A program made the translations under genes and the position numbers. Of a stretch of 64,000 nucleotides of DNA, positions 20,429 through 54,952 are shown piece by piece. The notes beneath the pieces are model-generated. The model searched no databases, was not told the DNA's origin, and was given only the letters and a program-made list of their open reading frames with translations. Source of the stretch: Octopus vulgaris (taxonomy: Eukaryota); contig OX597814.1 of the NCBI GenBank assembly GCA_951406725.2, positions 165,850,001-165,914,000 on the forward strand. Direction: 5' to 3'. Positions within the stretch are counted from its first letter, which is position 1. Each line of letters starts with the position of its first letter.

Positions 20429-20531
20429 CTGGATAACAAAGTATAAAATATATCTCAAGTCGTAAATAAATTGCAAAAACATTAAAATATACACACACAT
20501 GCATATCCAAAAACACATACATACAACAATA

Positions 20532-20895: not shown

Positions 20896-21073
20896 TATAT
20901 AATACAGACTGACAAGGTAACATTCAAGCATAAATTTACTTGCTATTGAAGCTTGTTTTAGCTATCATGGCTAAGATCATGCTAGATCACTGCCTTCAGT
21001 ACATGTATATACACATACACACACACACACACACCTGTCAGATCCCATCATTATAAATTAACAGATACTTTAC

Positions 21074-21176
21074 CTTTTCAATATCAGATTTCTGTAAATC
21101 TGCATTGCTAAGAACTTCTTCAATTTTAGCAACACAACGGTTCTTCAAGGAGGTACAAAGACTCTCAAATCTGGCC
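21074..21176 (-). CDS. HSPA14: HSPA14 exon 9
   Basis: ARFESLCTSLKNRCVAKIEEVLSNADLQKSDIEK. Confidence 0.95.
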
Positions 21177-22971: not shown

Positions 22972-23127
22972 CGTGAAACAGAAGTTGAGAAGTCCATACC
23001 ATCATAGAGTGATTCAACAGAACAATGGGAGTTATTAACAGTTGATAAGGCATGTTTGCACATCTCTGCACCTCGCTGCAATTTTGCAATTGACCGACTG
23101 TTATCACTGATGTCATGCCGGCACTGC
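22972..23127 (-). CDS. HSPA14: HSPA14 exon 8
   Basis: QCRHDISDNSRSIAKLQRGAEMCKHALSTVNNSHCSVESLYDGMDFSTSVSR. Confidence 0.95.
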
Positions 23128-24824: not shown

Positions 24825-24986
24825 CTTTTGAATTCTCCTTGAAGATGTTGCAAGAGAACCTCAGTAAAGTTGTCTCCACCCAGACTGTAATCTGACACCC
24901 CTGCTACTATAGAGTAGATCCCTCCACATAACTTGATCAGTGTCACATCACAGGATACACCACCAAGTCGAAATACAAGTACATAC
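24825..24986 (-). CDS. HSPA14: HSPA14 exon 7
   Basis: YVLVFRLGGVSCDVTLIKLCGGIYSIVAGVSDYSLGGDNFTEVLLQHLQGEFKR. Confidence 0.95.
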
Positions 24987-25157
24987 CTACAATAATAGAA
25001 ATGATATTAAAAATGTATCTACCAAAAAGACACACATAAAATATGTAATCACACACCTACATGTATGTCCACAATCTTTACACATTAACATTTATATGAT
25101 AAAACAAATTTTGTTGTTGAAAAATATGTAGAATTCAAGCAAAAAACTATTACAAAC

Positions 25158-25262
25158 CCTGAAATGCAGGATTCATCTTGTTGCACATCATATGCTAAAG
25201 CAGCAGCTGCAGGCTCGTGAATTATTCGTAGAACTTGGAAACCAACTTTTGTAGCAATCTGT
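25158..25262 (-). CDS. HSPA14: HSPA14 exon 6
   Basis: QIATKVGFQVLRIIHEPAAAALAYDVQQDESCISG, containing the Hsp70 VLRII.EP.AAALAY motif. Confidence 0.95.
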
Positions 25263-25578
25263 CTGTAAATAAAACAAAAAAGTATGGCAATGATATTTTA
25301 TTTGAACTTGATGTAACATTATATAACTTTCCATGCCTGTTTTTCATGTAAAAAATGTTTTTTTTTAATTCCATGTGTTCAAAAGCACAGAGCAACTGGT
25401 CATAATGTCAATAAAGAACGTAAACAATCATTTGACATTTCACTCAAACGAAGACATGAAATATCAGCATTCACAAACATTTGCACAAATACCCACATAC
25501 ATATTTGATAGTATATTACGCATATTATATAACAAAGTATAGCTGATGGATGACTGAAAGAGTTTTCTTTTTCCTTAC

Positions 25579-25669
25579 CGAAGTAGATTTTCTTGGTCTG
25601 TCGTGAAGCTAACCGGTACAGCAAGTACAGCATCAAAACAGCCTTTACCAGCTTTGCTCTGACCAATCT
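25579..25669 (-). CDS. HSPA14: HSPA14 exon 5
   Basis: EIGQSKAGKGCFDAVLAVPVSFTTDQENLLR, containing the Hsp70 AV..VP..F motif. Confidence 0.92.
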
Positions 25670-26689
25670 CTGTTAAACACAGCAGGAATAATCATGAAAT
25701 AATCAGCAGATAAATGAAAATGATACTTTTTATCACAGATGTAACTACTAAGATGATATCACTTAGAAATAGTAATATATATATATATATATATAGTAAC
25801 CATTAATACTGTTAGCAGTTATGGTCTATGAAAAGTTAATTCATTGACAACAGGGTTGACAGTTAAGAGAGTAAGAGTAATTAAATTGTGTTGTCAGCAG
25901 ATTTGAAAAGTAATGAAAAATAAAAAGTTTAAGAAAAGATTTTCTTTAAAATTTAGCATATGAATATAAATTAGTATTCTGTGGTGACTCTTATAAACAA
26001 TGAAAATAATTAAAATGGTCAGCAATTGAAACATCCCACCCCCACCTCGACTTTGTTGCTTCATAATTTCCAGAGAAAAAGGATACTTTTTAACGAAATT
26101 TTCAACAAATCCCACTTAGATGCTGTAGATTCAGAGTATATAGGAATTTATAGGAAAGAATTTTTCTGAGGCAGTGTGGAGAGGAGTTTCGGAAAATTCC
26201 CACGACCTGATTTTTTCCCCTCATAACTTTCAGGAAAATGGTATTTTTAAATGAAAGTTTATACAAATACCTTTCAAAATGCATAGATTATGATTATAAA
26301 GAAATTTGTGGGAGAAATGTTTTTCAAGAGTGTGGGGAGAGGAGATTTGAAAAAAAGGGGTTTTGGGATCAAGACAACCACAAAAGTTCATTTTCTTTTA
26401 CTCTATCCCCACCATCCCCCTCTGGACCGATTTTGGCCAATTTTTTTTTGGCACTTAAAAACTATGGGAGGAGCCTTTTCAGTTTTCTCGCTCTTGCATG
26501 TATTATGTTTTTCGATATTTTTCTCCCCGCTATATGTATTTTTGTTTGTTGTGTGATGTTTGTTCATTTATAGACTGAAGTACTTAGAGATCATAGATCA
26601 GAAGTTTTATGCACCCATGATATTATTGGCCAGCAGGAAACAAATAACTTTCAATATTCATAGTAGAATTTTGCCAGCTTATAGGAGTA

Positions 26690-27134
26690 GGAGTGGTTGT
26701 GTGCTAAGTAGCTTGCTAACGAACCATATGGTTCTTGGTTCAGTCCCACTGCATGGCACCTTGAGCAAGTATCTTCTTCTATGGCCTCGGGCTGACCAAA
26801 GCCTTGTGAGTGGATTTGGTAGACAGAAACTGAAAGAAGCCCATCGTATATATGTGTGTGTGTGTCTATATATATATACACATATATGTGTGTGTGTGTG
26901 TGTGTGTATGCATGTATGTATGTGTGTGTGTATATGTTTGTCTGTGTTTGTTCGCCAAACATCACTTGACAACCGATGCTTGTGTGTTTACATCCCATTA
27001 ACTTAGCAGTTTGGTAAAAGAGACCAATAGAATAAGTACTAGGCTTACAAAGAATAAGTCCTGGGGTCGATTTGCTCGACTAAAGGCGGTGCTCCAGCAT
27101 GGCCACAGTCAAATGACTGAAACAAGTAAAAGAG
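26690..27134 (+). mobile_element. tRNA-derived SINE, same family
   Basis: Full-length similarity to 2201-2591. Confidence 0.85.
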
Positions 27135-27347
27135 CTTTCCAACCCAGTCAATGACAGGTGTTTCTGCTAGTGTGTGTGTGTGTGTATATATATAGCATCT
27201 AAAAACAGTTGAAACAATATAGAAAAACAAAAGAAGAAACTAAAAGCATAGAATGCTCTCTCTCTCACTCACTCACTCCATCTCTCTCTCTCTCATCTGG
27301 TAACAATATATCTAAGAAATATGCAACAGTAATATATAATTACCTAC

Positions 27348-27453
27348 CAAGTAATTTCTTAAATAAAATCTCTAAAATCTCTGATACTGAGAAGACAGTT
27401 ACTTTGCCTTTAAAGTCCACCTCAAAAGCAACATCTTCCTTCCGGTTGACAAC
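27348..27453 (-). CDS. HSPA14: HSPA14 exon 4
   Basis: VVNRKEDVAFEVDFKGKVTVFSVSEILEILFKKLL; 106 nt, phase 0/1. Confidence 0.9.
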
Positions 27454-28328
27454 CTTAAAATATAAAAGTTACATGAAGTTGAAATAAGATTTAACAAATA
27501 TTGGTTTCAAGTTGCAGAATTTGAAGTCAGAAACATCAAGATAGACGAAATGCTGCTAAGCATTTTGCCCAGTGTGTTAGTGGTTCTGTCAGCTTGCCAC
27601 CTTAGATTTAGCAAATATTGAAAGATAAGCATTAAACCTTTCAGCATTTAAGCCAGCAAGATCAGGCCCAATTATTCTACCATTTTATGTTCATAGCACC
27701 AACCTACCCTACAACGTCATTCTAAAGATAAACAATTACATCACTGAAATCAAAAGTTCTCATTTCTAATATGTTTCTAAACAATCCCATATGCCAATCA
27801 TCTTGAGAACATATAAAGAATAGTAAATCATTAGACAAGGTATTCTTGTCTCAAATAACCAACACAAGAGTAGGCAGAATGATTTAGTAGTGAAGCACTA
27901 AATTAATTGGAAACTAATGTGCTAAGAGGTCTGTAGTGATCACTTTTTAACACAATGAATGTCCATTAGATGTCACTTAGTATAGTTCCTTTAGAAAAAA
28001 AAAAATGATAAAGATCCTTCTTGAGTCATATAGACTCATAGGGCCAGTTTTCCGGTTTCCATGGCATAAATATTGCCCCCTGGATAGGATACCAGTCCAC
28101 CCCAGGATTATTCATTTTTGCCAGATGAGTGAGCTGGAGCAACATGAAATGAAGTGTTTTGCTCAAGAACACATGTCACCCAGTTTAGGAATTGATCTTA
28201 CTATCATGAGTCCAACATCCTAACCACTAAGCCATGCACCTCCACCTAGTTCTTTTATGACTCTGTAATGTCAAGGTCCTGTAAAAACTTTAAAGAAAGT
28301 CAAGCACGAAAAAAAGTACAAAATTTAC

Positions 28329-28460
28329 CTGAACCTGTTTTTTATTCATGAACTGTTTTGTAGTTTCATCTTGGAAAGGTTTGCCTAATAACTGTTTGAC
28401 GTGGTATATTGTGTTCTTTGTGTTCCGTACATAGCCCTGCTTTGCAGCGAAACCAACAGC
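28329..28460 (-). CDS. HSPA14: HSPA14 exon 3
   Basis: AVGFAAKQGYVRNTKNTIYHVKQLLGKPFQDETTKQFMNKKQVQ; AG/GT. Confidence 0.92.
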
Positions 28461-28647
28461 CTGAAACAAGGAAAGAAATATTTAAATGTAAAAGAATGTT
28501 CTTAATGATGTATTTTGTCACAGACTTTATCACATCCCTCTCATGACAAAGATGCACGTTGCTGCTTGATAATATCACAAGTAATATCACAATATTTCAT
28601 GGCTTGATGATTAACTGATGCTACTATATTCTGTGAATTGATGATTA

Positions 28648-28906
28648 CCATATTTGATGGCCTATAAGATGCACAAATGCATAGGACACTTACCTGTATA
28701 ACTTTATGTTATTACCGGTAATTATGAGCAATTTATTGCATCCACATTCAATATAAATATACCGTAGGCGATTTTTCACCAATAGATGGCAACATGTTTT
28801 ATAAACATACATACTGTTTTCAGCCTATATTGAGTGCATTGGACACAGGGATTTTTAAAGCCATTTTGGGGTAAAATAGGTGTGTATTATAGGCCATCAA
28901 ATATAG
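28648..28906. mobile_element. Tc1/pogo-type MITE with TA flanks
   Basis: TA|ccatatttgatggcctataa ... ttataggccatcaaatatag|TA inverted termini. Confidence 0.65.
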
Positions 28907-29204
28907 TAAATGAAATACAAAACAGATATTGTATATAAATAATTAAAGAACCAGCAAGACAATTTATATTATGATATAAGCATCACCAGCAATTTAATAA
29001 TTGTTTTCTTGATGCCACAGATCAGTCTTAAAGTAAGTTCAAAAATTTTTAAATAAAGTTTTAGTATCTCATTTCAACTAGAACATATGAACAAATGATC
29101 AATGACTAAAAGACAGTAAGAAATTAGCAGTATACCATGGAACAAATAATTCATCATATCATATTTTATCATATTTGTGAGTAGGGAATAAAAAGTTGTT
29201 TTAC

Positions 29205-29285
29205 CATATCATGTTCTGTGAAAGCCACAAAACAAGGAGTGGTACGATCACCAAGATCATTTGCAACAACATCAACTCGTCCATC
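29205..29285 (-). CDS. HSPA14: HSPA14 exon 2
   Basis: DGRVDVVANDLGDRTTPCFVAFTEHDM; canonical AG/GT. Confidence 0.93.
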
Positions 29286-29950
29286 CTGAAAAAGTAAAAT
29301 TTTTAAATGTTACAAAATTTCAAGTGCTAATTTAATTGTTTTTTGCTTTTCGACAATAACAACAAATTTAAACAAAAAATATATTTAAATATTCCAAATC
29401 ATGCTATTCACTTTCATTTGTATTTTATAAATGGCCTTCAGAAGATTGGGTATCCTCACTTTGGCTAATTACTTTTGCCAGCCAGCATTAGTTACATCCA
29501 GCTTCCTAAACTAAAAATGAACAGAATATTTTCTCATTCATTTCTCTACCTTTCCCCACCTAGAAAATACAGATTCTATAAGAAGAGCCCTTACTCTTAA
29601 AACCCTAAAAGTGAAGCAAAAAATGATAGTTTCAAACTTATATTAACATAAATAAACCTTATCAGAGCTTCCTTAACATCAAACGAAAGGACAAACAGCA
29701 GTGATACAGCAAGAGAAAGTAGTCATCCTTTGGTTACAGATGTGAAGTAGACAAAATTTCCTGTCTTACTGCACCTGTTAATTTAGATAGAGATGGTAAA
29801 AGTTTTTGCTCTTCAGGTTTTCCTAAGAATCCTTTCTACATTACTGACAGTCAGTAGGTGTTGACAGGATAGATAGATAGATACAGCTAATCGATATCAT
29901 CGGATAGATGTGACACAACAAATGTTGAACTAGACATTGTTGTCAGAAGT

Positions 29951-30180
29951 TTAACTTTTTAGCGTTTCAAACTGGCCATATCTGGCCCAAATATTTTACC
30001 TGTTTTATGTTCAAACTGACCAGATATGGCCTCTCACACCTACCCTACAATGTCATTCTAAAACTTAAACAATTACATCATGGAAATCTCAAATATATGA
30101 GACAATGCTTGATTAATTCAAAACCATATGAATAAATAAACATCACATTTGTCAGAGTAATCTGAATGCTAAAGGGTTAA
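29951..30180. mobile_element. TTAA-flanked MITE (CCCTTTAGC family)
   Basis: ttaactttttagc ... gctaaagggttaa. Confidence 0.7.
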
Positions 30181-30756
30181 ATCAACTCCTAAGAAAATGT
30201 TAATTCAGAGCAAGTTGAAAACAAAATAGTCATGACAACAAAAAAAAAAACCCTGACATAGCCTTTGATTGATTCAATGTCACATCCACACTTCTCTCAT
30301 CAAATTCACGTTTATTTTTCAAATGAGAAACAAATGATTAAATACTACGCCCTAAGACAATGTACTTTGTAACATAGATGAGATGCCCCACCACTGGCTC
30401 ATGATTAGAAATACCACTTGAATATTTCATTTGTTCATCAAACAGAACTCACAAGAATATATGATAGTAACCTACTATCTCAGCCATCTACATAACATTG
30501 TTATTCCTCTGGTTTATTGTTGGGATTAAAAAGTCACTAATTTTCTTGTTATTCTTTAGTGTTTGAACTGGCCATATCTGGCCCAAATATCCTATCAATT
30601 CTACCAATGTTCAAACCAGCTAGATCTGGCCTCTCACATCTGCCATACAATGTTACTGTAAAAATAAATAATCATATCATCAAATGTCAAGACCATGAGA
30701 TAATGCACGATAAATTCAGAACAATATGAATACATAAGCATTACATTTGATAGAGT

Positions 30757-30940
30757 CATCATCATCATTGTTCGACCGTGGTCGAGACAATGGAATTTAT
30801 CATGCTACGCCAGACTTCATGGTCCATCATAGCATTACGGAGGTCCTGTTGCTGGATGCCTGTATCCCTGGAGATTACATCAGGGTAGGAGAGTGTGTGC
30901 CCTCTGGTATCGCGAGTAGATGGCTTCCAGAGAAGAACTC
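30757..30940 (-). mobile_element. 5'-truncated RTE/RTEX-type LINE 3' end, inserted into a TTAA MITE
   Basis: 10-bp TSD TTGATAGAGT (30747-56, 30941-50); encodes VLLWKPSTRDTRGHTLSYPDVISRDTGIQQQDLRNAMMDHEVWRSMINSIVSTTVEQ*, followed by a (ATG)n tail. Confidence 0.8.
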
Positions 30941-31195
30941 TTGATAGAGTAATCTGAATGCTAAAAGGTTAAATTAGAGATAATGTTGCTAAATTAAATA
31001 CAGAAACTATGTTAGAGATATATGAGAGTAAGTAATGGAAAGAAAGCCTAACACCGAAAGCAAGTAGAAACCCATCAATACAGGGCTTGTTATAAAGGAT
31101 GTTGTTGCGAGAAATACAAATAAATTCATGTTGTTGAAACACAAAACTTTTGCAAAGCAAAAACAAAAAAAATGCTTCATGTGGTTAAATCTAAT

Positions 31196-32058
31196 ACTCT
31201 TTTACTGGTTTCAGTCATTTGACTGTGGCCATGCTGGAGCACTACCTTTAGTCGAGCAAATCGATTCCAGGACTTATTCTTTGTAAGCCTAGTACTTATT
31301 CTATCGGTCTCTTTTGCCGAACCGCTAAGTTACGGGGGATGTAAACACACCAGAATCGGTTGTCAAGCAATGTTGCGGGGACAAACACAGACACACAAAC
31401 ATATACACTCACATACATATATATATATATGTATAAAAATTATATATAAAAAATACAAAATGGGACAAGAACGCAAAGAACACAAAGAGACGACACAAAG
31501 AACGGACGGGTCATTCGAAGCCTCTAATCTTCAGTCGGGAACCGGATCGTCCTAGCAAATTTCGGCTAATTAATCCTATATATATATATATATATATATA
31601 TATTTGCCAGCCTCACCTGGCCCTCGTGCCGGTGGCACATAAAAAGCACCATCCGTTCGTGGCCGTTTGCCAGCTCTGTCTGGCACCAGTGCGGGTGGCA
31701 CGTAAAAAGCACCCACTACACTCACGGAGTGGTTGGCGTTAGGAAGGGCATCCAGCCGTAGAAACACTGCCAGATTTGACTGGGCCTGATGAAGCCTTCT
31801 GGCTTCACAGACCCCAGTAGAACCGTCCAACCCATGCTAGCATGGAAAACGGACGCTAAATGATGATGATGATGATGATGATACACACACACATATATAT
31901 ATGACGGGCTTCTTTCAGTTTCCATCTACCAAATCCACTCACAAGGCTTTGGCCGGTCCGAGGCTATAGTAAAAGACATTTGCCCAAGGTGCCATGCAGT
32001 GGGACTGAACCCGGAACCATGTGGTTGGTAAGCAAGCTACTTACCACACAGCCACTCC
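31196..32058 (-). mobile_element. tRNA-derived SINE, same family, interrupted by nested insertions
   Basis: Reverse-complement copy; its central microsatellite carries a foreign fragment (~31432-31576) and a (GAT)n-tailed retroposon (31606-31881). Confidence 0.85.
31606..31881 (+). mobile_element. (GAT)n-tailed retroposon copy nested in a SINE
   Basis: Same family; sits within the microsatellite of the 31196-32058 SINE. Confidence 0.75.
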
Positions 32059-32753
32059 TAATGTTGATTTCTACTCAATTCCTGGTAGAAAAGGTGTCAT
32101 CAAAGATTAACTATTGCTATATAGATCATCTTTTGTCAGTATGAAAGCAGTGGTTCCTAACAATGAGATTGATGAAAAATTATCACCGGAAAGATTGTAA
32201 TTTTTGTATGTCATTCAAGATAGAAAAGCCTTTCATGACAAAAAAAGTAGTGTTAACAGATATCTGCAAGAAATGTAAGTTTGCTGTCATAATTATTTAT
32301 GAAAGTATACACTTTACAGTTGTGAAAATTTCAATTACAGTTGGGAGATACAAGATTGGGTTGTAATGTAAATAAAAATTGCATCACTTTCTGACTCACC
32401 CACATACATTAATTTGAATAAGTATGAGGTCATAAATGTACAGTTACATACTTTAGTTGTTGAAAATGAAATGGTTCTTGGTTTTCACAGTGTCAAATCT
32501 ACACTGTGAGAACGAAACTTCTTTAGACAATATTACTGGATTTGCAAGATAAATGTTCACAAGTGGGCTCTAGACATTACTGAAAGATGATATGCCTCCT
32601 GTTTTGTTAAAAGTGCATCTGTCATTCTCTTACTCTTTGTACTGGCCATGTTAGCAGCATATTGTTGTTGGGTTTCAAGGTTTTCTTAAAAGATTTAACA
32701 CCTTACTTTCTTCAAAGCAGAGAAAAACAATTTATTCAGAAAGATATTGCAAC

Positions 32754-32893
32754 AAATTAATAGTTATCGCCATACTAATATGGCAGTCTTATAAATATAA
32801 GACTAAAGCTGTCGCTGATTAGCTCTATGAGGCCACCGCTTTAGTCTTATATTTATAAGACTGCCATATTAGTATGGCGATAACTATTAATTT
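32754..32893. repeat. Perfect 56-bp inverted repeat within a 194-bp insertion that has a 13-bp TSD
   Basis: Arms 32754-32809 and 32838-32893 are exact reverse complements; GATATTGCAACAA is duplicated at 32743-55 and 32950-62. Confidence 0.9.
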
Positions 32894-34433
32894 CCAGTAA
32901 CGCTGCCGTAATCTCCTTTAGAGAGACTTAGTAATTTTAATATTTCTATGATATTGCAACAACTTGTCAGAAAATACCTAAACTTGCACAAAAAAAAGGT
33001 GGCTTTCTTCAGAAAGTTATTACAGTGATATTACAGAGTATTTGTAAATACAAAGTGAATGGGAAGCTGACAAAAGTTGATGGTGCCAGGAAAATTTATA
33101 ACTGCAGAGCCAAGCACATGCTACTTTTCCTTTTATATAAGAGTTTCCTGGATATTGAATTCCAGTCCGAATATTTCAGGTTGCATTTTCTATATTCATC
33201 CAAGTATTGAGTAACTATAAAAACAATGGTGTAACCTCAGAGGAAAAGCAACAACAAATTTAATTAATAAACTTTTTAATGATTTAAAACAGACTGTCCA
33301 AAATTCCAAGCAGATCTTTATATTCAAATAAGAGAAAGGTTTCTTTTCAATGGTGGAATTACTGCTAATCTAAAGGTATTTTACCCAAATGTAGCTCACA
33401 ATTTCAGCAGATCTCCTACATTTACTATTCCAGTAGCTGTTTGTTCATTCCCCCTCCACTTAACCAAAACAGACTAAATCTAAATGATATGATGATCAGT
33501 AGATGAGTAATTATTTAACAACAAACAATTATTATTAGTCAAATTAAACAAATAATCAATTAGTAAGTTGGATATTTAACCAACTGACTAATTATAAAGA
33601 AGTGAAATTGAACCAGTGCGTGTGTTAATAACATTGGCATAATGACTCTCCCTAGGCACAACTAAATGTGTTTCAACACACGAATTCACATAAAGAATCT
33701 TGCACACCAGATACGAAAACGAAATTAACTGATCACTATGGATAATATTCCAGAATATTATTACAAGTTAGAAACGTCATTTCACAATGTAAATTATGGA
33801 TACTGTGGTAAACTGCATGCTTAAAGTAAAACCATATGACTTGTAATCAAATTTAATGAGTAATCTTGCCACATTAGTTAGCATGCTTTGAAAGAATACG
33901 CTCACAAATGAAGGGTGTCAAAACAAAAAATACTAATTCTTTAAAAGCAGAGCATGTAATATATAATTATTTGCTAGCAATGATATAGAATGCAATATGT
34001 GGCAGGCCAGAAAAGAATTAATGAAGAACTTGGAAGAAGAAGCTGAAAATAAAAGATAGTTGGAAAGAATTTTGAAAGGAAAAAGAACAGAACAAATTGT
34101 TTACTCTACTAAGAGAAAATTGAAGAAGGATGGCGAGTAAATACAGTTATACTAGTTGTCTTCTTAAACTTTGTATTACTGTAAGGACGGTGGGGTGGGG
34201 GTCCTTCGACACGGGGTTTTCCTGCCCGCCTGATCTGGAGTTTCCTTAAAATTTCATTGGGTAACCCTGCTGCAAAGTAGCATGTTGCAGAGCCCTCAAT
34301 GTAAATTCAGGACTTGGTTTAAAAGACTGGATTAAAGAGTAATGTCCACTAAATAAATGAAGAAATTTAAGACCAAAACTAATATCTCTTAATAAATTTT
34401 GAGGCTATATTTTATCGGCCTCGGAATAATGAA

Positions 34434-34704
34434 GGTACTATTTAAGAAGTGTGGTCCCGGTCCGAGCACTCGCGCATCCGTGCTAGCTAGTAGTCCTACA
34501 ATGACTACATCTCCTATAAAAAAAAAACCTATTTGTTTAAAAAAAACCCATCTATGTTATGATGGGGGTACCAAACTTTTATCTAATAACTTTCAACTGA
34601 ATTTGTACGAACATTTGTTATAGGATAGGTAGTCGTTGTAGGATCGACTAGTCACGACTAGGTAGCGCGGAGCGCGAGTGCGCGCACTCTTCTTAAATAG
34701 TACC
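34434..34704. mobile_element. MITE with long TIRs and a 9-bp TSD (Mutator/MULE-like)
   Basis: TIRs GGTACTATTTAAGAAG.../...CTTCTTAAATAGTACC extending imperfectly over ~85 bp; TSD AATAATGAA at 34425-33 and 34705-13. Confidence 0.8.
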
Positions 34705-34715
34705 AATAATGAATA

Positions 34716-35099
34716 GGAGTGGCTGTGTGGTAAGTAGCTTGCTAACCAACCACATGGTTCCGGGTTCAGTCCCACTGCGTGGCATCTTGGGCAAGTGTCT
34801 TCTGCTATAGCCCCGGGCCGACCAATGCCTTGTGAGTGGATTTGGTAGACGGAAACTGAAAGAAGCCTGTCGTATATATATATATATGTATGTGTATGTG
34901 TGTCTGTGTTTGTACCCCTAGCATTGCATGACAGCCGATGCTGGTGTGTTTACGTCCCCGTCATTTAGCGGTTCGGCAACAGAGACCGATAGAATAAGTA
35001 CTGGGCTTACAAAGAATAAGTCCCGGGGGTCGAGTTGCTCGACTAAAGGCGGTGCTCCAGCATGGCCGCAGTCAAATGACTGAAACATGTAAAGAGAGT
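34716..35099 (+). mobile_element. tRNA-derived SINE, same family
   Basis: Full-length similarity to 2201-2591. Confidence 0.85.
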
Positions 35100-35825
35100 A
35101 ATGTCGATTCCTAGTAAGACTCATAAACAGTCACCATTTCGACCACCCGTCCCACCCAAATAAATATTTCAACTAACTATCACTAGGCTTTGCAAAATAA
35201 TAATCGGTAATGTAATGATCAAAATCCTGTATAATTCCAAAAAGGAGGCGGGGGAGTTAAGACCATATCGAAGCACTTTTATATTCGACAACGTAAATCA
35301 CCGTCAATTTATAGTTAACGTATTTACTCAAAAGTACAGTAAGTGCGTTCACGTGACCTGTTTGTTTAGAGATGTTATGTAAACAAACGCACGTTGTGAA
35401 TTCAGTGGTACGCTTTCAGACATACTTAACCCTTTCGTTACCGTATTTCTGTTGAGATGCTCTGAGTTTCTTTCAATTACTTTAAATGTAACAAAGAATT
35501 TAGTAAATAACTTAGTTACCATTCAGCCGGTGTTAGGAACATAAATAGTGACTAAGATTTGGTGGAAGATTTTTATTCAAAACTGATGAAAACAAGACAT
35601 TTGTACTCAGAGCCAGAGCCGGTTTCAGCCGGGTTAGAGGCGTTTTTACTTCTGTTTTCCTTTAAAGAAACCCTTTATGTTTGTTAGTGAAGGGTCTTAT
35701 AGCAACTATAAATGTATAGGACAAAGGCATAAGCGGATGAATAAATACCTGTTAGAGATTAACAGCCATACCTCCCTCAAATTACCTACCTACTTTAAAC
35801 GGAGAGATTTTTTTTTCTTTCTTTA

Positions 35826-36039
35826 TTCTTTTATTTGTTTCAGTCATTTGACTGCGGCTATGCTGGAGCACCGCTTTATTCTTTGTAAGCCTAGTACTTA
35901 TTCTATCGGTCTCTTTTGCTGAACCGCTAAGTTACGGGGGACGTAAACACACCAGCATCGGTTGTCAAGAGATGTTGGGGGGGGGGGGGCAAATACAGAA
36001 ACACAAACGTATACACACACACATATATATATGTGTATA

Positions 36040-36094
<55 letters not shown>

Positions 36095-36258
36095 ATATAT
36101 ACGATGGGCTTTTTTCAGATTCCGTCTACCCCATCCACTCACAAGGCTTTGGTCGGCCCGAGGCTATAGTAGAAGACACTTGCCCAAAGTGCTACGCAGT
36201 GGGACTGAACCCAGAACCATGTAGTTCGTAAGCAAGCTACTTACCACACAGCCACTCC
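35826..36258 (-). mobile_element. tRNA-derived SINE, same family
   Basis: Reverse-complement copy with a long (TA)n core. Confidence 0.85.
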
Positions 36259-37189
36259 AACGCCTATACTGAATATATATTCATCCTCATCATCATTTAA
36301 CATCCACATTTCCATGCTTGCAAGTTTCAGACGGAATTTGTTGAGGTAGATTTTCTACATCTAGATGCCCTTCGTGTCATGAACCTTCACCAGTTTCCAA
36401 GTAAGGTTAAATTTCCCCATAGTCAGACATGCTTTTTCATGGAAGACTGAACATGGCTTGTATGATGATGATGCTCATTTACAACCACCACGTAGTATCT
36501 AAACAAAGGGTCCATACAAACACATACAAATACATGACAGCTTCTTTCAGTTTCCGTCAATCAAATATTCTGACAATGCTTTGATCCGCCCCGGGGCTAT
36601 AGGAGAAGACACTTGCCCAAGATGCCGCACAATGAGACTGAATATATAAATACATTAAAAAAACTTTATAGCGGACTGCGGTAACTACCTGTTAGAAGTG
36701 ATGCAATGGGATCTGTACCAGGATTTGGTGAAGGTGCACCCAAAATTGTAGCTGAGAGTACCGATGATATCACATAACACTGGGCGTTGATGCAAATGAA
36801 TGTCGTAACAAGTTTTGCATGACAGAAATCACGAAATGTTAGAAACTACTGTATTATAGTGTGGATAGATGGATAGTCTAACAACTACGTGGACATAAAC
36901 TTTCGATTAACACCTGCACGATTTTCACTATTTACCCTTCGATACGTACTCGCACAACACCTTGCAGTCCACAGGAAATTTCGGTAACACTATTCGAGTG
37001 TGCATAGACAAAGCATTAAGAATACGAGTATAGGGAGGAAATAATTTGCTAGCGAAACATTAGCCCCGTCACACACACACATACCTGTTTCCGAAAAATA
37101 AATTTTTATGAGGCAGAAAAAACAGAGAAACTTGATAGTTTTCATCATCACGTACGTGGTTACGTGCATATTGTAATAGGTTACGTGCA

Positions 37190-37552
37190 TCTCTCTCTAT
37201 ATAAACGGCAGTTTGTCTGTGCGTGTTTCTGTGTGTCTGTTTGCTTGTACCCTCACCCTGACCATGGCTTTCAACCGATTCTGATGAAACTTGACACACA
37301 CATAGCCCAATGTCATAATTCAAAACTAACGCAGCGAAAATTTTGAAAAGTTCCCCCAGTTCTGAAAAAATCGATAAATTCGACATGGGGTCGAGAATCA
37401 GAAACACGAACCACAAACTGTCTAGGGGACGCAACTCCACTTTTTTAAATCTCAATAAAAAAATTTACCATCATTTTTTTCCAATAACTCTCTAAAAATG
37501 CTTTATAGTTATTTCCCTTACAAACCTGAGCAACGCCGGGCGATACTGCTAG
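37190..37552 (+). mobile_element. Non-autonomous Helitron
   Basis: 5' A|TC; 3' hairpin cctgagcaacgccggg, then CTAG|T; an adjacent duplicate of the empty site confirms the A|T insertion point. Confidence 0.85.
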
Positions 37553-39164
37553 TATTGTAATAAAGTAAATAATTACATAAGCGTTTATCACGAGGGACAG
37601 CACTCACTAGAGGAGCTTGTAAGAATGAAAAGGGTAGACCAACAAACTGACATATTTAATACAAATTCCAATGGTTTTCAACTTTTTAAACTTGTCCAAT
37701 ACTATGAGAAAGAAATAAGAAGTAGGAGGATGCAAAATATTTTGTCACCGCGTTAATACAAAAGAAGGATGTTACATTAGCCCTAATTTTGGTGGTGGTG
37801 GTGGGTGGACCTAGTATTTGTCAGTTTCAGTACCATTACACTAAAACACAATCTCATATATGCACAGATACACAGAGGACATTACTAAATCATAAAAATA
37901 CTGATGCCAGGGATCACTAGGAAAAGAAATACCTCCTACTCAACTTACCAGTCCCAACAAGTGACAATGTATCTTGTAACAATGAAACAGGAGAAATTAT
38001 CCAGATAAACCTGAGTGTTAAAGTCTAAAAATTGAAATTATCCCAACAAGTGTCGAGGGAATGATGAAAAAAAAAACAGGCAAAAACATAGCCAAAATCC
38101 TAGGACTTAAATATGCACAACATACAGAAACTAGCACTACAAGACACAGCACATACCTAAAATACACAAGTGAAAGCATGCAATAAAAATAAGACACCAG
38201 AAAAATAATAATTGCTTCTAGCATAGGCACAAGGCTTGAAATTTGGGAGAAGGGTTAGCTAGTACCATTAACTCCACTACTTGATAGGTACTAATTTTAT
38301 CAAGCCTGAAATGATGAAAGGCAATGCTGACCTTAGCAGGATGTAACCTCAAAACAAAGAGCTAGAACAGATACTGCAAATCATTTTAACTAAAGCTTTA
38401 ATGATTCTGTTAACTCACTGCAATAGGAATAATAGTAATGCTTTGTAATTTTGGTACAAGGCTAGCAATTTTGAGAAGAAGTTACATCACCCTCTAGCAC
38501 TTGACTGGTACTTCATTTTATTGAACACAAAAGGTGATAAAGTTGACCTTGGAGGATTTGAACTCAGAATATAAAGAGCTGGGAAAAATACCACTAAATA
38601 TTTTGTCTGATGCAATTCAGCCAGCTTAATAATAAGCTTTCTACTAAAGGTACAAAGCATGAAATTTGGGGAGAGGGGGCTAGTTGATTAATACCTAATG
38701 AATTGGAAGAAATGCCACTTAGTATTTTGTTTGGTGTGCTAACAATTCTACCAGCTTGACGCCCAGAAAATAATAATTCTTTCTGATTTTGGCATAAGAC
38801 CAGCAATTTTGAGAGTAGGGGTCAATTGATTACACTGACCCCAATACTTGACTGGTAGTTTGTTTTATCAACCCCTTAGTGATGGAAGGCAAAGTTGATT
38901 TAGATGGGATTTGAACACTAATAATGATAAAGAAAAAATGTGAACTATAATTAGTATACTCAATTTACTTGTTATGTGGGGGAAAAAAACAGAAATTTGA
39001 ACACTAGGTCAATTTTGCAACCCTCCTGCCCATACACTTTCAGTAGAAGCTTTAATGAGAACTTCATGTCAGCATCAAAATATTGCTGATGAAGACTGGA
39101 TTACAATTCAGGAACCTAAGAGATCCAAAAACACAATGAATAATCATAGATATAACCAGTTATA

Positions 39165-39325
39165 ATAATGAAATTATTGTATACAGTGCTCAGGTGCACC
39201 ACAACTTGTCAGAAAGTGTGTATAAAGTATATGCAGTAATGTACAAATGTCTGGAAAGCGAACAATGTATGAGTCAGATACATGCTTGTGTGTATGGAGG
39301 GGAGAAAATCAGGTGTAGTGTTGGC
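39165..39325 (-). mobile_element. CR1 LINE 3' end fragment
   Basis: Reverse complement of the 3' UTR of the 51955-53225 element (..caagttgtggtgcacctgagcactgtatacaataatttc). Confidence 0.85.
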
Positions 39326-39379
39326 ATTGTGAACATAATGTGAAAATTATGACACTATGTGGGACATAAAACAACACTC

Positions 39380-39920
39380 AAACGATATGAAGTTTGCTGC
39401 AGGTGTCCATGAAGAAATGATAGAATTGTGCTTAAAAGTAGAAAAGGTTGTTGCTTATTTTTAACAGGGTGGTTTAAGGTCTCATCTCAAACTATGACAA
39501 ATTCTTAGTCTGAACAACTTATCTGCATTGTAATATGCTAGATTATTTCAGGGGTTATCCCAGAACATAATCAAGCATGAGCTCAAAATTAATAGCAATT
39601 TAGGGTGGTCATCAATTATGTCAAGATCTAGCCATGGAATACTTTCCAAAAAAGCAAAACCTCTAGCAAATATGACAGACCAGAGGTTACTGTGGAAATT
39701 AACAAATATTTGTTTGTGCTTTGCACATATCATATATTACAAGAGACCAGTATAACTTCAGAAGCTCGAAAGAAAAGACTTCATTATCCCCAATGATTAC
39801 AAAAGTGATGAAGCAATAATACCAGGACTATTCCAGGTCCAATCATTGGGTAGATTATGTGGACAATTTTAGCAATCATCATGGTATCATTAACCACTCA
39901 ATATATGTACATCCAGTTTT
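39380..39920 (+). pseudogene. Possible highly decayed hAT transposase relic
   Basis: Fragments LCLKVEKVVAYF*QGGLRSHLK and VEINKYL resemble hAT (Hermes-like) transposase segments; many stops and frameshifts. Confidence 0.3.
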
Positions 39921-40690
39921 GAGTCAGAGTAATCCAAATGTTAGTACATTTAATGTAATCTTCTGGCAAACTCAGCATTGGGTCTTTGAATGAGGGTACA
40001 GTTTAACAGATGGATTTTCAGTTTCCATCAAGCCAATTTTACTCACAGGCTTTGGTCTACACCTAAGGTTATGTAGGTGTTGACTAGTGAGACTGAAAAG
40101 GTTAAACTATTCAGCCATGTGTCTACAAGAGCCACTGAGGGAGCCTTTATTTGGTCACTCAACTTACTAATAATAGTAACTAAATCTTCAGATCACACCC
40201 TACTGGCTTGAAAAAAGGGAAGGACACATTTTATAACTTATTCTTAGATACCCCTAAAGAGAAAATGTGGATGGGTAAAAGGCCTTTGACCAGTGGTGTG
40301 AACTAGAACTAAACCACAACTTGCGTAAATTGTACTTTCCAGACCAGCTATGTCTCATAAACTCTCACTATATATAATATACAATTGCAGTTACTATCAT
40401 GAAGACAATGAAATTTTAGTTTTAACTGCCACTTATAACAAAAATAAAATAAATCTTTTATTATTGAGGAGTTAAACTAATTATGTAGATAAAATTTTGA
40501 CAATTATTTTCTTCGTATAGTATTCCTTATTTTTTTTTTTCCAACCATGAATAATTTGCAGTCTCTTTTGTAACACCTAGCAGTAATAAAGATCCCCAAC
40601 ATAGATTTATTTCTAAATCGCTTCTTCGTTTCCATGATCCCATGAAAGTGAAAGTATAAAAGTGTTTGTTCGTCATGATGCTGACATAAG

Positions 40691-40789
40691 TTCCTTGTTT
40701 TTCCTGATGAGAAGACGGCATAATGCACCCTTTATTCCTTCGGAATTAAGAATATGCAGTCTTCAAAACATATGTCAAGAATAAAGGAA
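40691..40789 (+). ncRNA. Type-I hammerhead ribozyme motif, degenerate (G12A), probably from a Penelope-like element or retrozyme
   Basis: Helix I 5' strand 40691-40703; CTGATGA 40704-40710; helix II GAAGAC/GTCTTC (40711-16/40759-64), extended by GCATA/TATGC; AAAAC in place of GAAAC (40765-69); palindromic loop ATAT; GTC cleavage triplet 40774-76; helix I 3' strand AAGAAtaAAGGAA. Confidence 0.7.
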
Positions 40790-40935
40790 TTTTGTTAAAT
40801 CGTCGTTCGACTCCATTCTTTCTTTCATTTATTTATATATATATATATATATCAACAATTGAGGGTAAAATTAATTAATTAATCAATTTCACCAAGTGTT
40901 CAGTATGTAAAAGGACCATTTAAGGCGAATTCAAA

Positions 40936-40994
40936 ATATTACATTATATAATTAGGGCTTAGTATATTTTACTAAGCCCTAATTATATAATGTA

Positions 40995-40998
<4 letters not shown>
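40936..40998. repeat. Perfect 29-bp hairpin
   Basis: ATATTACATTATATAATTAGGGCTTAGTA-tattt-TACTAAGCCCTAATTATATAATGTAATAT. Confidence 0.9.
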
Positions 40999-41033
<35 letters not shown>

Positions 41034-43696
41034 TATAGATATGGGTTGCCAACTATTACAACTATTAGGCTGTGGATCCTTTGGTAACAGGCTACACAAT
41101 ACGAATAAATTTTTTAATTTTATTTCTATTTTATTAGCTATTGTTTTATTGTAAAACAACATCGTTGACTTACACAACAGTTTTTCTTGGAAGATGACAA
41201 TTTCTTGCGACAAACTCTTTTGGTACAGCTCCACAGTATCCACCTGCACAATGTGGGTCTTCAATGAGCTCACCACACCCATAAAGAAGTTGAATACAAT
41301 GAGGGTCATAATTTATCAGAAAAGCAATTATGACTCTGGTATTTTATATTCGTTATTCTAACTTTCTTCTATTAATAATCAATAAGCTAACATGATTTGA
41401 ACTCAGAATGTAAAGAGCTGGGAGAAATGCCACTAAATATTTTGTCTGATGCAATTCAGCCAGCTTAATAATAAGCTTTCTACTAAAGGTACAAAGCATG
41501 AAATTTGGGGAGAGGGGGCTAGTTGATTAATACCTAATGAATTGGAAGAAATGCCACTTAGTATTTTGTTTGACACCCAACTTGACACCCAGAAAATAAT
41601 AATTCTTTCTGATTTTGACACAAGACCAGCAATTTTGAGAGTAGGGGTTAATTGATTACATTGACCCCAATACTTGACTGGTAGTTTGTTTTATCAACCC
41701 CTTAGGGATGGAAGGCAAAGTTGATTTAGATGGGATTTGAACACTAATAATGATAAAGAAAAAATGTGAACTATAATTAGTATACTCAATTTACTTGTTA
41801 TGTGGGGAAAAAAACAGAAATTTGCTTTGCAATGTAATCAAAATATTTGCTGGATCCAACTTCAATAACTGTTTTAAAGTTTGGCACAGTGCCAGCAATT
41901 CTGGGGGAGAGAGGGTAAGTTGATTACATCAACGGCAGTACTTGACTGGTACTTTATTTTACCGACTCCGAAAAGGATGAAAGGTGGATGCTTTAAAGTT
42001 TCAAGGCGGCATTCCACTGTTCATTTTTGTTCTTTATTTCATTCTGTAAGAAAACATTTTCACTTAACGGCCTGGAAAATACATCTGACAAGCAATTTTT
42101 TTACTTTCATGGACCCTGGAAACAAAGAAGCACCAGCACAATTTCACAAATTTTGAACAAGGGAATAGTCAAATCGATCTCAATACTTAATTGATACTTA
42201 TTTTATAAATCTCGACGTGGTTTGAACTAAGAACGTAAAGGGGAAACAACTAAGTATTGAAAACTGCTTTATCGATTCTTTCATTCATCACTAATAATTT
42301 CTTTAAATTTTGATAATTTTTTTTACAAATACACCTGCCTCACAATGAGAGGGTGGTTTACCAAGAGAACGGGTGATTTTCGATGATTTTGAGATTCAGA
42401 TTCATTCAAAATATATAAAAAAACAAACTTAGGACAAACATAAATATCACCTTCAAAATGAGATAAGTGCAACAGAAAAAATTTACTTTTTATCTACTAC
42501 AAAATTTGATGGAGTGTGTTCGATCAAATCGACCACAGTACTGCATTAATAATGAAAGATGTGTGTGTGTGTGTGTGGAAGTGGGTACGTGTGTGGCGCG
42601 CCTGTTTCGCTTTTAGACTCGAACTTATTTTATAAGGATGGGATATAGAAACTTTGCGACGCTCGTATCTTCAAATTACACAAAATAAAATACCGTCAGG
42701 ACTGAATACAAATTGAGGAATTAGTGATATCAATTGTAAACAAAAAAAAATATTCAGTTATGTAGAGGAATGTACGGAATAAGGAACGGTACGGCTAATG
42801 AGAATGTGCATTATTCATACCATTTCTAACGGTATTACGCAACAAACAGAAATGGAATCTTCACAGCTAACTACGAATTTATTACAAGGACTCAAATTTA
42901 TTAACAAAGGAATTAGATATTCATAATTTCCTAAAGAGTGTTAGCAACTTGAAGTAAAATAACTTTTTCAGGTCACTTAGCTCTACATGTCAGAGAAAGC
43001 ACGTGGTCTGTCCCAGATGATATAACGCATCACAATCTATTCTAAACAAAGAGATATATCAAGAGCTAACGGTTTCACTTCTGTATTTTATGAAGTGGAG
43101 TTTTATTTACATGATATATAATAAATGTGACAAACATTAAAAATAATTTTTCTTTATATATTTTTACCATCTGAATGACTGGTTATGCACGTCCTATTTT
43201 GTGATATACATTTGGCACAAAAAATATTTTTGTGATCAGCAATATCTGTGAAACTGAGTAGAAACAGAGTAATCTCAGCTGTTTAATAAATTATTACACA
43301 CTTATTTCTGTTTTGAATATTTTTTTCATCTCTTGTTTGTCGTAAACTCAACAATACATAGATAGCAAGCTAACAAAGGCACACACATACATTGATAGAT
43401 ATTGATAAAATAAAGACACTCATATACATAAATATGAGATTTAGCACGAGTTACGTGACAAGTGACACTGGCTAAACTCTGAGTAGTAACCAGTACCTTC
43501 AAACATTAATAGCGTGAGCACACGGGGCTGTGCATGTGTGTGTAATTGCTAAAGGGCCTATGAGACCTTCTGACTACTAGGATGTCCTCGAACTCTGCAG
43601 CACTCATCACCAAGAAGGAAGTAAATGAAACTGATTTAAAAACTTAAACAGAAGAAATCGAGAAACGATAGATTTTTAAATTGTTTAAAACGTCAC

Positions 43697-43789
43697 CTTT
43701 GTAAAAGCAACACAAGCAGCCGATGAACCGAGATGTAGGCCGAATCCTGCAGAGCCCACCGCTCCAGCCTGCACAGCCGGTGAAGCCAT
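43697..43789 (-). CDS. HSPA14: Heat shock 70 kDa protein 14 (RAC subunit), coding exon 1 of 14
   Basis: MASPAVQAGAVGSAGFGLHLGSSAACVAFTK, then gtgacg donor. GxHLG in place of GIDLG is typical of HSPA14. Confidence 0.9.
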
Positions 43790-44553
43790 GGCTGAGACGA
43801 TAGAAAGCTTTTCAGTGTTAAGTGTTTCCTTACTTTCTTCTCTGGATTCTTTGCTTTACTTAAGAAGATTATGATGATGATGATGACGAAGGGAGATAAT
43901 CGGTGCCATCATTTTTTTTTTCATAAAGTGGAACTCTCTAATTTAGACGCCACTTCGTTGACTTGAAGAAGTTTAGACGAGAATCTCGCCGAATAAAACC
44001 GGCATCAAGAGATGACCAATGATTGAACGCCAAGTCTACTGACGTCACAGAGTCAACACGCTGACGGGGCACATTGGCAGAGGCCCACATATACAGAAAG
44101 TGACAGCGCTGAAATAATAAGCTTGACAATTCAGTCCGCATAGCAGAAACATATAAAATCGGCTACGCGTGTGATTTTTAAGACAGTAAGCAATATACAT
44201 CGCGAGTGTAATCAATTGGAGATTAAACCCAGTATATATCTCTGTAAATAGACAAAAACACATATAAATACATAACACTCGAGAAGTACAAAAAAAATTA
44301 TTGCAGACGTTATAATACAATATCTCATTAGTTTAAAATATATTCCATTCCGTAATTGAAAGTATCCAAGAAAAGAAATCTCTACAACAAAGCGATTGCT
44401 CCACGGAGTTTGTAATCATCCCTAGCATATTTCCGATCTCCGCCCCTACAGAAAGAAGGAAAATCTCAAGATCTGGTTACATTGTCAAGTGACAAGTTGT
44501 CAACGTCTCTTCTTTCTCATTCTCTTAGTTTCATCGATCCGTTTGATTTTAAA
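43790..44553. promoter_or_regulatory. Bidirectional promoter region shared by HSPA14 and MANF/CDNF, with CRE and ERSE-like elements
   Basis: 764 bp between divergent ATGs, CpG-richer than the flanks. CCAAT-N9-CCAAG at 44016-44034, TGACGTCA at 44040-44047, TGACGGGG at 44062-44069, ATTGC-T-CCACG at 44395-44405. Confidence 0.65.
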
Positions 44554-44641
44554 ATGAAGTTATTGCTACTGGTAACAGCTTTGTTTGCTGTCTGTAACAT
44601 TCTGTCGGAGACTCTGGTCGCTGCTGAAACCCGGTGTGAAG
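44554..44641 (+). CDS. MANF: MANF/CDNF (ARMET) family neurotrophic/ER-stress protein, exon 1 of 4 (signal peptide)
   Basis: MKLLLLVTALFAVCNILSETLVAAETRCE: hydrophobic signal peptide, then the first conserved Cys; G|gtaagt donor. Confidence 0.88.
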
Positions 44642-51058: not shown

Positions 51059-51183
51059 TGTGTATAAAAGAAGTTGAACTATTCCTTAAAACTGTACCTC
51101 CTGAATCCAAGTCTAATTTCAATGAACTGAACAAACTCTTTAGAGAATTCTGTAAAGGTTCCAAAAGCAAAAGAGAAAGATTT
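51059..51183 (+). CDS. MANF: MANF/CDNF exon 2 (saposin-like domain)
   Basis: VCIKEVELFLKTVPPESKSNFNELNKLFREFCKGSKSKRERF; AG/GT; CEVC motif spans the exon 1/2 junction. Confidence 0.92.
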
Positions 51184-53704: not shown

Positions 53705-53846
53705 TGTTATTATATAGGAGCTTTAGAAACATCAGCTACCAACATTATCAATGAGATGACTAAACCATTGACCTATAGTCTACCAGTTGAAAAAGTTTGT
53801 CAAAAACTGGAAAAGATAGATCGTCAGATCTGTGATTTGAAATATG
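53705..53846 (+). CDS. MANF: MANF/CDNF exon 3
   Basis: [47 protein letters not shown], containing the family-hallmark CYYIGA...AT.I..E..KP...P.EK.C.KL...D.QIC.LKY. Confidence 0.96.
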
Positions 53847-54755: not shown

Positions 54756-54952
54756 AAAAAATGATTGACTTAGCAAAAACGAATTTGAAGAAGCTGAAAG
54801 TTAAAGATTTGAAGAAGATATTATCACAATGGGGAGAAGACGGAGCATGCAAAGGATGTGCTGAAAAATCTGATTTTATCAAAGTCATTGAAGAACTAAT
54901 GCCAACTTATGCTCCTGAAGCTTATGCTGCTCGTCAGAATGTAGAATTATGA
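54756..54952 (+). CDS. MANF: MANF/CDNF exon 4 (SAP-like domain, CXXC, ER-retention-like end)
   Basis: [65 protein letters not shown]; joined CDS is 552 nt = 183 aa. Confidence 0.96.

What the first reader, a model, noticed from the sequence alone, without database searches (positions are those of the whole stretch)
43697..44641. HSPA14 and MANF/CDNF are head-to-head, as CDNF and HSPA14 are in human
Seen in sequence: divergent ATGs at 43789 (HSPA14, -) and 44554 (MANF/CDNF, +), 764 bp apart, in a window where the other intergenic gaps and many introns are kilobases long. Established knowledge: in human, CDNF and HSPA14 are adjacent head-to-head on 10p13, and invertebrates generally have one MANF/CDNF gene. 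Inference: the linkage may date to the bilaterian ancestor. If so, vertebrate CDNF (not MANF) occupies the ancestral locus, and a ribosome-associated cytosolic chaperone has long shared a promoter with an ER-lumenal BiP cofactor.
Basis: partly seen in the sequence, partly recalled or inferred. Interest (0 to 1): 0.72.

Follow-up and report, generated by a model that had tools for sequence, protein, structure and literature searches.

The report
Ancient head-to-head HSPA14–MANF/CDNF gene pair
An octopus ribosome-chaperone gene (HSPA14) and its single MANF/CDNF stress-protein gene point away from each other 764 bases apart, as they do in two DNA fragments from non-mollusc animals and as CDNF and HSPA14 do in humans, so the pair likely dates from early bilateral animals and likely shares one small promoter.

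Summary
Confirmed and extended. An Octopus HSPA14 (14 exons, 527 aa, minus strand) and the genome's only MANF/CDNF gene (4 exons, 183 aa, plus strand) have ATGs 764 bp apart. Spliced RNA contigs and a 532-nt ATG-free stretch point to a long MANF leader, leaving a likely shared core of about 150-300 bp; start sites are not mapped. The two genes share a scaffold in 14 of 16 mollusc species (2 not comparable) and have consecutive accessions in 6 of 14. Two metagenome contigs from non-molluscan animals show them head-to-head (306 and 1124 bp). A 2010 table lists CDNF-HSPA14 as divergent in fish, mouse and human only. The tree makes the octopus gene a co-orthologue of MANF and CDNF: MANF-like in sequence, CDNF-like in neighbourhood. 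Ancestral bilaterian linkage is likely (~0.85). Invertebrate deuterostomes and ecdysozoans are untested; Nematostella is inconclusive. Correction: CDNF kept the old neighbour, but MANF's locus may be equally old if the two arose by genome duplication (recalled, untested). A new member of a known kind.

The parts
15818..43789 (-). HSPA14 (Hsp70L1, ribosome-associated complex subunit), 14 coding exons, 527 aa; first intron 14,411 bp
   Evidence: HSPA14 clade in tree
43697..43789 (-). HSPA14 coding exon 1 (31 codons), spliced to exon 2 at 29285
   Evidence: splice seen as loose end in 6 of 8 runs
43790..43908 (-). ATG-free stretch upstream of HSPA14 (119 nt): likely main 5' leader; separate RNA contigs end at 43779, 43785 and 43838
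   Evidence: inferred, start not mapped
43909..44062 (.). Likely shared core promoter (about 150 bp; up to about 300 bp by contig ends 43838-44142)
   Evidence: inferred from contig ends and ATG-free leaders
44016..44034 (+). CCAAT box; one mismatch to the ERSE consensus (CCAAT-N9-CCAAG)
   Evidence: P about 0.02 in shuffles, uncorrected; absent from L020 and L022
44040..44047 (.). Perfect CRE palindrome TGACGTCA, the only one in the 64-kb window
   Evidence: P 0.006 uncorrected; function untested
44022..44553 (+). 532-nt ATG-free stretch, the longest of 2751 such gaps in the window: likely long unspliced MANF/CDNF 5' leader; separate RNA contigs begin at 44063, 44067, 44072, 44131 and 44142
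44395..44405 (+). ERSE-II-like element with one mismatch (ATTGC-T-CCACG), 159 bp upstream of the ATG; GC box at 44440-44445
   Evidence: P about 0.023 uncorrected; absent from L020 and L022
44554..44641 (+). MANF/CDNF exon 1 (hydrophobic signal-peptide-like N-terminus and first Cys)
   Evidence: splice in 8 of 8 runs
51059..51183 (+). MANF/CDNF exon 2 (ARMET_N)
53705..53846 (+). MANF/CDNF exon 3 (ARMET_N)
54756..54952 (+). MANF/CDNF exon 4 (ARMET_C/SAP-like domain, CKGC, C-terminal NVEL, stop)

Best explanation
HSPA14 and the single MANF/CDNF gene are transcribed away from each other in this octopus, and the pair is likely an arrangement inherited from the bilaterian ancestor that is likely kept intact because both genes start from one 150-300 bp promoter. 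Shown: gene structures, splicing, transcription of most of the gap, adjacency across molluscs, head-to-head order in two non-molluscan contigs and in vertebrates (CDNF). Inferred: a housekeeping-type core (CCAAT, CRE) fires in both directions, giving a short HSPA14 leader and a long, ATG-purged MANF leader. A break in so small a shared region would cripple both genes, so the pair is rarely separated. After the vertebrate duplication, one copy (CDNF) kept HSPA14 and diverged faster in protein sequence. The other (MANF) lost the partner, kept the slower-evolving sequence and carries the ERSE-driven stress response. The two proteins need not work together.
For: Same scaffold length for both proteins in 14 of 16 mollusc species, including a 329,608-bp scaffold in Haliotis rubra; the other 2 are not comparable. 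Accessions consecutive in 6 of 14 and within 12 in 9 of 14, covering octopods, scallops, an oyster, a clam and a snail. Head-to-head in L020 (ATGs 306 bp apart, whole HSPA14 present) and L022 (1124 bp, with a likely 5'UTR intron). Both lack the 2-residue insert found in all 13 named mollusc proteins including the window's; L020 HSPA14 falls outside the starred mollusc clade. CDNF-HSPA14 is listed as divergent, distance <0, in zebrafish, mouse and human (PMC2871058 Table S5 row) and adjacent on a sole BAC (PMC6579814). Vertebrate MANF+CDNF form one clade at 100/100 that excludes octopus. One RNA contig spans the whole gap in 3 of 8 runs; in the other 5 the MANF-side contig begins at 44063-44142. 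No plus-strand ATG in 532 nt, against about 8 expected in 491 nt, P 0.0002; the opposite strand has 14.
Against: Start sites are not mapped: contigs show neither starts nor strand, and no DNA control run was laid. Accession order shows adjacency, not orientation; 5 of 14 species have gaps of 82-908. No data for amphioxus, echinoderms, hemichordates or arthropods. In a Nematostella gene table the ARMET-like genes are flanked by an unnamed gene and carbonic-anhydrase-like genes, with two ids missing and no row named HSPA14 anywhere: inconclusive, leaning unlinked. None of the octopus CRE or ERSE-like motifs recurs in L020 or L022. The phylum of L020 and L022 is not fixed. A GC box and ERSE-II-like site near 44400-44445 could mark a second, MANF-only promoter.
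Confidence: 0.68

Rival explanations
1. The linkage is ancestral, but the genes have separate promoters and stay together only because a sub-kilobase gap is a small target for rearrangement.
For: Promoter motifs are not conserved among the three sequenced gaps. A MANF-proximal GC box and ERSE-II-like site exist. The proteins act in different compartments. A second divergent pair lies in the same window.
Against: The gap stays short in a 2.8-Gb genome where both first introns are 6.4 and 14.4 kb, is 306 bp in L020 and <0 in the human-anchored table. RNA covers nearly the whole gap.
Confidence: 0.13
2. The shared promoter is kept for function: it co-regulates a cytosolic co-translational chaperone and an ER-lumen regulator that act on the IRE1/BiP stress pathway from opposite sides of the ER membrane.
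For: MANF binds BiP and the IRE1 lumenal domain (PMC10405524, passages). HSPA14 is a subunit of the ribosome-associated complex, and a cited title links that complex to IRE1 activation (PMC13757519, passages and reference list only). The octopus gap holds a CRE and two one-mismatch ERSE-type sites. L022 continues with HSCB and a Jiv90-domain (DNAJC14-type) gene.
Against: The motifs are imperfect, chosen among 17 tested, and missing from L020 and L022. The strongly stress-induced vertebrate paralogue with ERSE-II is MANF, the one reported without the element being CDNF (PMC6095968, passage). No co-expression data were seen. The IRE1 paper itself could not be read.
Confidence: 0.12
3. Convergence: the genes became neighbours separately in lophotrochozoans and in vertebrates.
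For: No invertebrate deuterostome was observed. Nematostella does not show the pair. The pair was picked after the fact from thousands; PMC2871058 puts chance recurrence of an oriented pair in two species at 0.002-0.01.
Against: It needs the same two single-copy families, the same orientation and a sub-kilobase gap twice, each then fixed across a whole phylum.
Confidence: 0.07

Closest known systems
Vertebrate CDNF-HSPA14 divergent pair (Davila Lopez et al. 2010, PMC2871058, Table S5 row 376)
   Same: Same two gene families, divergent, under 1 kb apart; listed as a potential bidirectional promoter
   Different: Listed only for zebrafish, mouse and human. Here the partner is the pre-duplication MANF/CDNF gene in molluscs and other invertebrates, more similar in sequence to MANF (48-55% against 39-49% identity; 165 against 139 bits to PDB chains)
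Ancient conserved microsyntenic pairs with co-regulation (Irimia et al. 2012, PMC3514665; abstract seen)
   Same: Unrelated genes tightly linked across bilaterian phyla, likely through a shared regulatory region
   Different: Whether this pair is on their list is unknown: the supplement could not be read
HSPD1-HSPE1 (Hsp60/Hsp10) head-to-head chaperone pair (PMC2871058, passage)
   Same: Conserved divergent pair of protein-folding genes
   Different: Hsp60 and Hsp10 form one machine in one compartment (established knowledge); HSPA14 and MANF/CDNF lie on opposite sides of the ER membrane with no known contact

Membership tests
HSPA14 / Hsp70L1 (RAC subunit) | Hsp70-family fold with orthology to HSPA14 rather than canonical Hsp70 or BiP | tested here: met
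   Pfam HSP70 on 5 of the 6 HSPA14 exons scanned; within the HSPA14 clade, SH-aLRT 100, against 8 canonical Hsp70/BiP/DnaK rows
HSPA14 / Hsp70L1 (RAC subunit) | Short C-terminus without the EEVD or ER-retention tail | tested here: met
   527 aa ending QIPVR against 655-676 aa ending EEVD or HDEL in the outgroups
HSPA14 / Hsp70L1 (RAC subunit) | Heterodimer with DNAJC2 on ribosomes | not tested
   established for mammals (PMC13757519); not examined for octopus
MANF/CDNF (ARMET) family | ARMET_N plus ARMET_C domains, eight conserved cysteines, CXXC, signal peptide, KDEL-like end | tested here: met
   Pfam; 8 mature Cys invariant in alignment A1; CKGC and NVEL; the signal peptide judged by eye only
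Vertebrate CDNF (one-to-one orthologue) | Groups with CDNF to the exclusion of MANF | tested here: not met
   MANF+CDNF clade 100/100 excludes octopus; octopod+CDNF clade rejected, p-AU 0.009 (this test also breaks mollusc monophyly)
Vertebrate MANF (one-to-one orthologue) | Groups with MANF to the exclusion of CDNF | tested here: not met
   octopod+MANF clade rejected, p-AU 0.0008 (same caveat)
Bidirectional promoter | Divergent genes with starts under 1 kb apart | tested here: met
   ATGs 764 bp apart with unspliced RNA cover up to both first donors
Bidirectional promoter | Mapped start sites flanking one core | tested here: inconclusive
   contig ends and ATG-free leaders suggest 150-300 bp; contigs cannot show starts
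Bidirectional promoter | Shared elements drive both genes; co-expression | not testable with these tools
   needs reporters, deletions or expression matrices
Ancient bilaterian microsyntenic pair | Tight linkage in both protostomes and deuterostomes | tested here: met
   molluscs and two non-molluscan contigs; vertebrates from published tables
Ancient bilaterian microsyntenic pair | Present in intermediate lineages (invertebrate deuterostomes, ecdysozoans) | tested here: inconclusive
   supplement searches for amphioxus gave no rows; Nematostella table unclear
2R ohnologue pair MANF/CDNF | Both genes in paralogous blocks from whole-genome duplication | tested here: inconclusive
   tree fits a vertebrate-only duplication; ohnologue tables not found in readable supplements; the 3p21/10p13 paralogy is recalled
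ERSE / ERSE-II stress element | Exact CCAAT-N9-CCACG or ATTGG-N-CCACG (consensus recalled) | tested here: not met
   one mismatch each in octopus; none within one mismatch in L020 or L022

The most novel reading that the evidence does not exclude
For over 550 million years one tiny promoter has jointly set the levels of the ribosome-side chaperone HSPA14 and the ER-lumen BiP/IRE1 regulator MANF/CDNF, coupling co-translational folding to the ER stress response. Vertebrates split the ancestral gene's two regulatory modes: CDNF kept the HSPA14-coupled basal promoter and MANF the ERSE-driven one, both of which are still side by side in octopus (distal CRE/CCAAT core, proximal ERSE-II-like site).
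Probability: 0.15. Interest if true: 0.8.

Novelty: new member of a known kind. Interest (0 to 1): 0.5.

Why it matters
It gives the MANF/CDNF field an evolutionary frame: invertebrate 'MANF' genes are co-orthologues that look like MANF but sit where CDNF sits, a case of sequence and genomic context sorting to different paralogues. It predicts that edits, variants or silencing at the CDNF promoter can change HSPA14, which bears on knockout design and association signals at that locus. It also adds a testable ancient promoter pair joining two protein-folding compartments. The kind of arrangement is well known, which caps the surprise.

Tried and rejected
Literature: searches for CDNF+HSPA14 (9 papers, listings only, two later opened or none on evolution by abstract), MANF+CDNF+synteny, CDNF+MANF+amphioxus+duplication, CDNF+bidirectional promoter and wider term sets showed no paper on an invertebrate linkage. 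Irimia 2012 supplements were unreadable and may list the pair; the large tables S2 and S4 of PMC2871058 may be cut in the copy searched. Supplements of PMC11136973, PMC4504502 and PMC7269912 had no rows for the genes. Two papers were not held. Earlier scan notes: nothing on this pair. No RNA holder on record was listed; the runs were judged RNA from their splices. X20, laid as a hoped-for DNA control, proved spliced, so there is no DNA control. Atlas searches did not place L022 or name the ORF at 58523-58915. The bacterial promoter scan is irrelevant here. Haliotis rufescens (accessions seem to come from different releases) and H. asinina (MANF accession not seen) were left out of the accession count. 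No fold or complex job was sent: no binding is claimed.

Full report
Observation. The minus-strand gene has 14 coding exons from 43789 to 15818 and gives 527 aa identical to a record named HSPA14 of Octopus sinensis. It falls in the HSPA14 clade against canonical Hsp70, BiP and DnaK rows and lacks their C-terminal tail. The plus-strand gene has four exons and gives 183 aa identical to a record shared by O. vulgaris and O. sinensis, with ARMET_N and ARMET_C domains. It is the only ARMET_C match in the 2.8-Gb genome (1 of 39 candidates scored). The window is therefore from an octopus of the vulgaris group.

Transcription and promoter. Eight public runs, kept as contigs and not on record as RNA, were laid on 43150-44800 (8 of 24 listed). 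All eight show the MANF exon 1 to exon 2 join and six the HSPA14 join, so they are RNA. In three (X1, X4, X17) one contig covers 43696-44641, which shows that transcripts reach across the gap but not that there is one transcript. In the other five the MANF-side contig begins at 44063, 44067, 44072, 44131 or 44142; the HSPA14-side contig, seen in three of them, ends at 43779, 43785 or 43838. Contigs cannot map starts. A separate sign agrees: the plus strand has no ATG from 44022 to 44553, the longest of 2751 ATG-free gaps on both strands of the window. Shuffles of 44063-44553 give 8.0 on average (P of zero 0.0002), and the other strand has 14. On the minus strand the ATG-free stretch above HSPA14 is 119 nt. 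I infer a long MANF leader, a short HSPA14 leader and a core of about 150-300 bp. That core holds a CCAAT box and the window's only perfect CRE; one-mismatch ERSE and ERSE-II look-alikes lie at 44016 and 44395. The P values (0.006-0.023) are uncorrected over 17 motifs, and these motifs do not recur in L020 or L022, so they are leads only.

Molluscs. No relatives' genomes were available, so linkage was read from database records. Sixteen mollusc species yielded both proteins. Fourteen give the same scaffold length for both, among them a 329,608-bp scaffold in Haliotis rubra. The other two (O. sinensis, Magallana gigas) cannot be compared because their MANF sequence is shared with a sister species. 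Accessions could be compared in 14: consecutive in O. vulgaris, O. bimaculoides, Argonauta, Pecten, Argopecten and M. gigas; 5, 6 and 12 apart in Gigantopelta, Mya and O. sinensis; 82-908 apart in the other five. That accession order often follows gene order is my own knowledge; it gives adjacency, not orientation, and large gaps do not show separation. O. vulgaris and O. sinensis are not independent of this window.

Beyond molluscs. A metagenome scan with a MANF alignment gave 21 loci. Two hold the upstream side of an intron-bearing animal gene, and both have HSPA14 head-to-head: L020 (whole HSPA14, ATGs 306 bp apart) and L022 (HSPA14 exon 1, E 8e-10 to an exon-1 profile; ATGs 1124 bp apart, with a likely 5'UTR intron). 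All 13 named mollusc proteins, the window's included, have five residues between the Trp and the CXXC motif. L020, L022, Lingula, Tubulanus and vertebrates have three. L020's HSPA14 lies outside the mollusc clade, near Lineus; L022 is unplaced. So the order is seen in at least two non-molluscan animals, probably lophotrochozoans. For vertebrates I saw one table row of PMC2871058 (Table S5: CDNF-HSPA14, divergent, distance below zero, zebrafish, mouse, human) and a passage of PMC6579814 listing cdnf next to hspa14 on a sole BAC. For Nematostella, a gene table of PMC10946136 shows three ARMET-like genes among carbonic-anhydrase-like genes, an unnamed gene on one side, two ids missing, and no row named for HSPA14. 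That is inconclusive and leans against linkage. Invertebrate deuterostomes and ecdysozoans were not observed.

Paralogues. In a 65-protein tree, vertebrate MANF and CDNF form one clade (100/100) without the octopus protein, and CDNF has the longer branches. Grouping octopods with either paralogue alone is rejected (p-AU 0.009 and 0.0008; these tests also break up the molluscs). The octopus protein is closer in sequence to MANF, as a review states for invertebrates generally (PMC10405524, passages). So the invertebrate gene resembles MANF but shares CDNF's neighbour. If the two are genome-duplication copies (recalled; searches did not confirm it), both loci descend from the ancestral one and the HSPA14 copy beside MANF was lost.

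Mechanism. Most likely (0.68) the pair is ancestral and held by a compact shared promoter that cannot be split without harming both genes; the proteins need not cooperate. Rivals: separate promoters and passive persistence (0.13); selected co-regulation of the ER stress pathway (0.12); convergence (0.07). The co-regulation idea rests on MANF binding BiP and IRE1 (PMC10405524, passages) and on a cited title tying the ribosome-associated complex to IRE1 (reference list of PMC13757519; the paper itself was not held). Against it, the ERSE-II element is reported in the MANF promoter and not in CDNF's (PMC6095968, passage). Taken together, ancestral linkage has about 0.85-0.9.

Novelty. Ancient head-to-head pairs are a known class (PMC3514665, abstract and opening text; PMC2871058, passages), and the vertebrate pair is already tabulated. 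I found no paper on the invertebrate linkage, but the supplement of PMC3514665 could not be read and may contain it, and most subscription papers are not searched. Verdict: real, well supported, a new member of a known kind; interest 0.5.

Noticed in passing
window 141-695 (-) and 5798-11050 (+): A second divergent pair: an S1-like-domain gene (MOV10L1-type, name recalled) and TSR2 (Pfam WGG). A GC-richer patch at 4300-4650 with possible splice donors on both strands may be a shared promoter with non-coding first exons.
   Followed up: partly
L022 5081-6251 (-) and 8840-9187 (-): Downstream of HSPA14-MANF lie HSCB and a Jiv90-domain (DNAJC14-type) gene: four folding-related genes within 9.3 kb.
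   Followed up: partly
L020 10990-11069 (+): Probable first exon of prefoldin subunit 5, 2.3 kb after MANF; weak match only (E 0.49).
   Followed up: partly
window 54824-54853 (MANF exon 4): A two-residue insert before the CXXC motif is shared by all named mollusc MANF proteins seen and absent from Lingula, Tubulanus and vertebrates.
   Followed up: yes
window 44554-44641: Octopod MANF is a few residues shorter before the first conserved Cys than squid-type and other mollusc proteins, and has a long stem branch.
   Followed up: no
window 51911-52789 (+): LINE-type reverse transcriptase remnant in MANF intron 2 (Pfam RVT_1); a shorter similar piece seems to lie near 56040-56160.
   Followed up: no
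window 43856-43924 (-): A 22-codon upstream ORF over a short GAT repeat would be present on longer HSPA14 transcripts.
   Followed up: no
L003 1-1614: MANF with an intronless coding region and an apparent 5'UTR intron in a non-mollusc-type animal contig.
   Followed up: partly
Mya arenaria records: Two accession sets each for MANF and HSPA14 on one scaffold: the pair may be duplicated as a unit or assembled twice.
   Followed up: no
Nematostella table, NV2.900-906 and NV2.985: Three ARMET-like genes close together; a DCLRE1C-like gene, a neighbour of human HSPA14 by recall, lies about 85 ids away.
   Followed up: no
window 58520-58980 (-): Coding-looking open frames with no Pfam or Atlas assignment.
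   Followed up: partly
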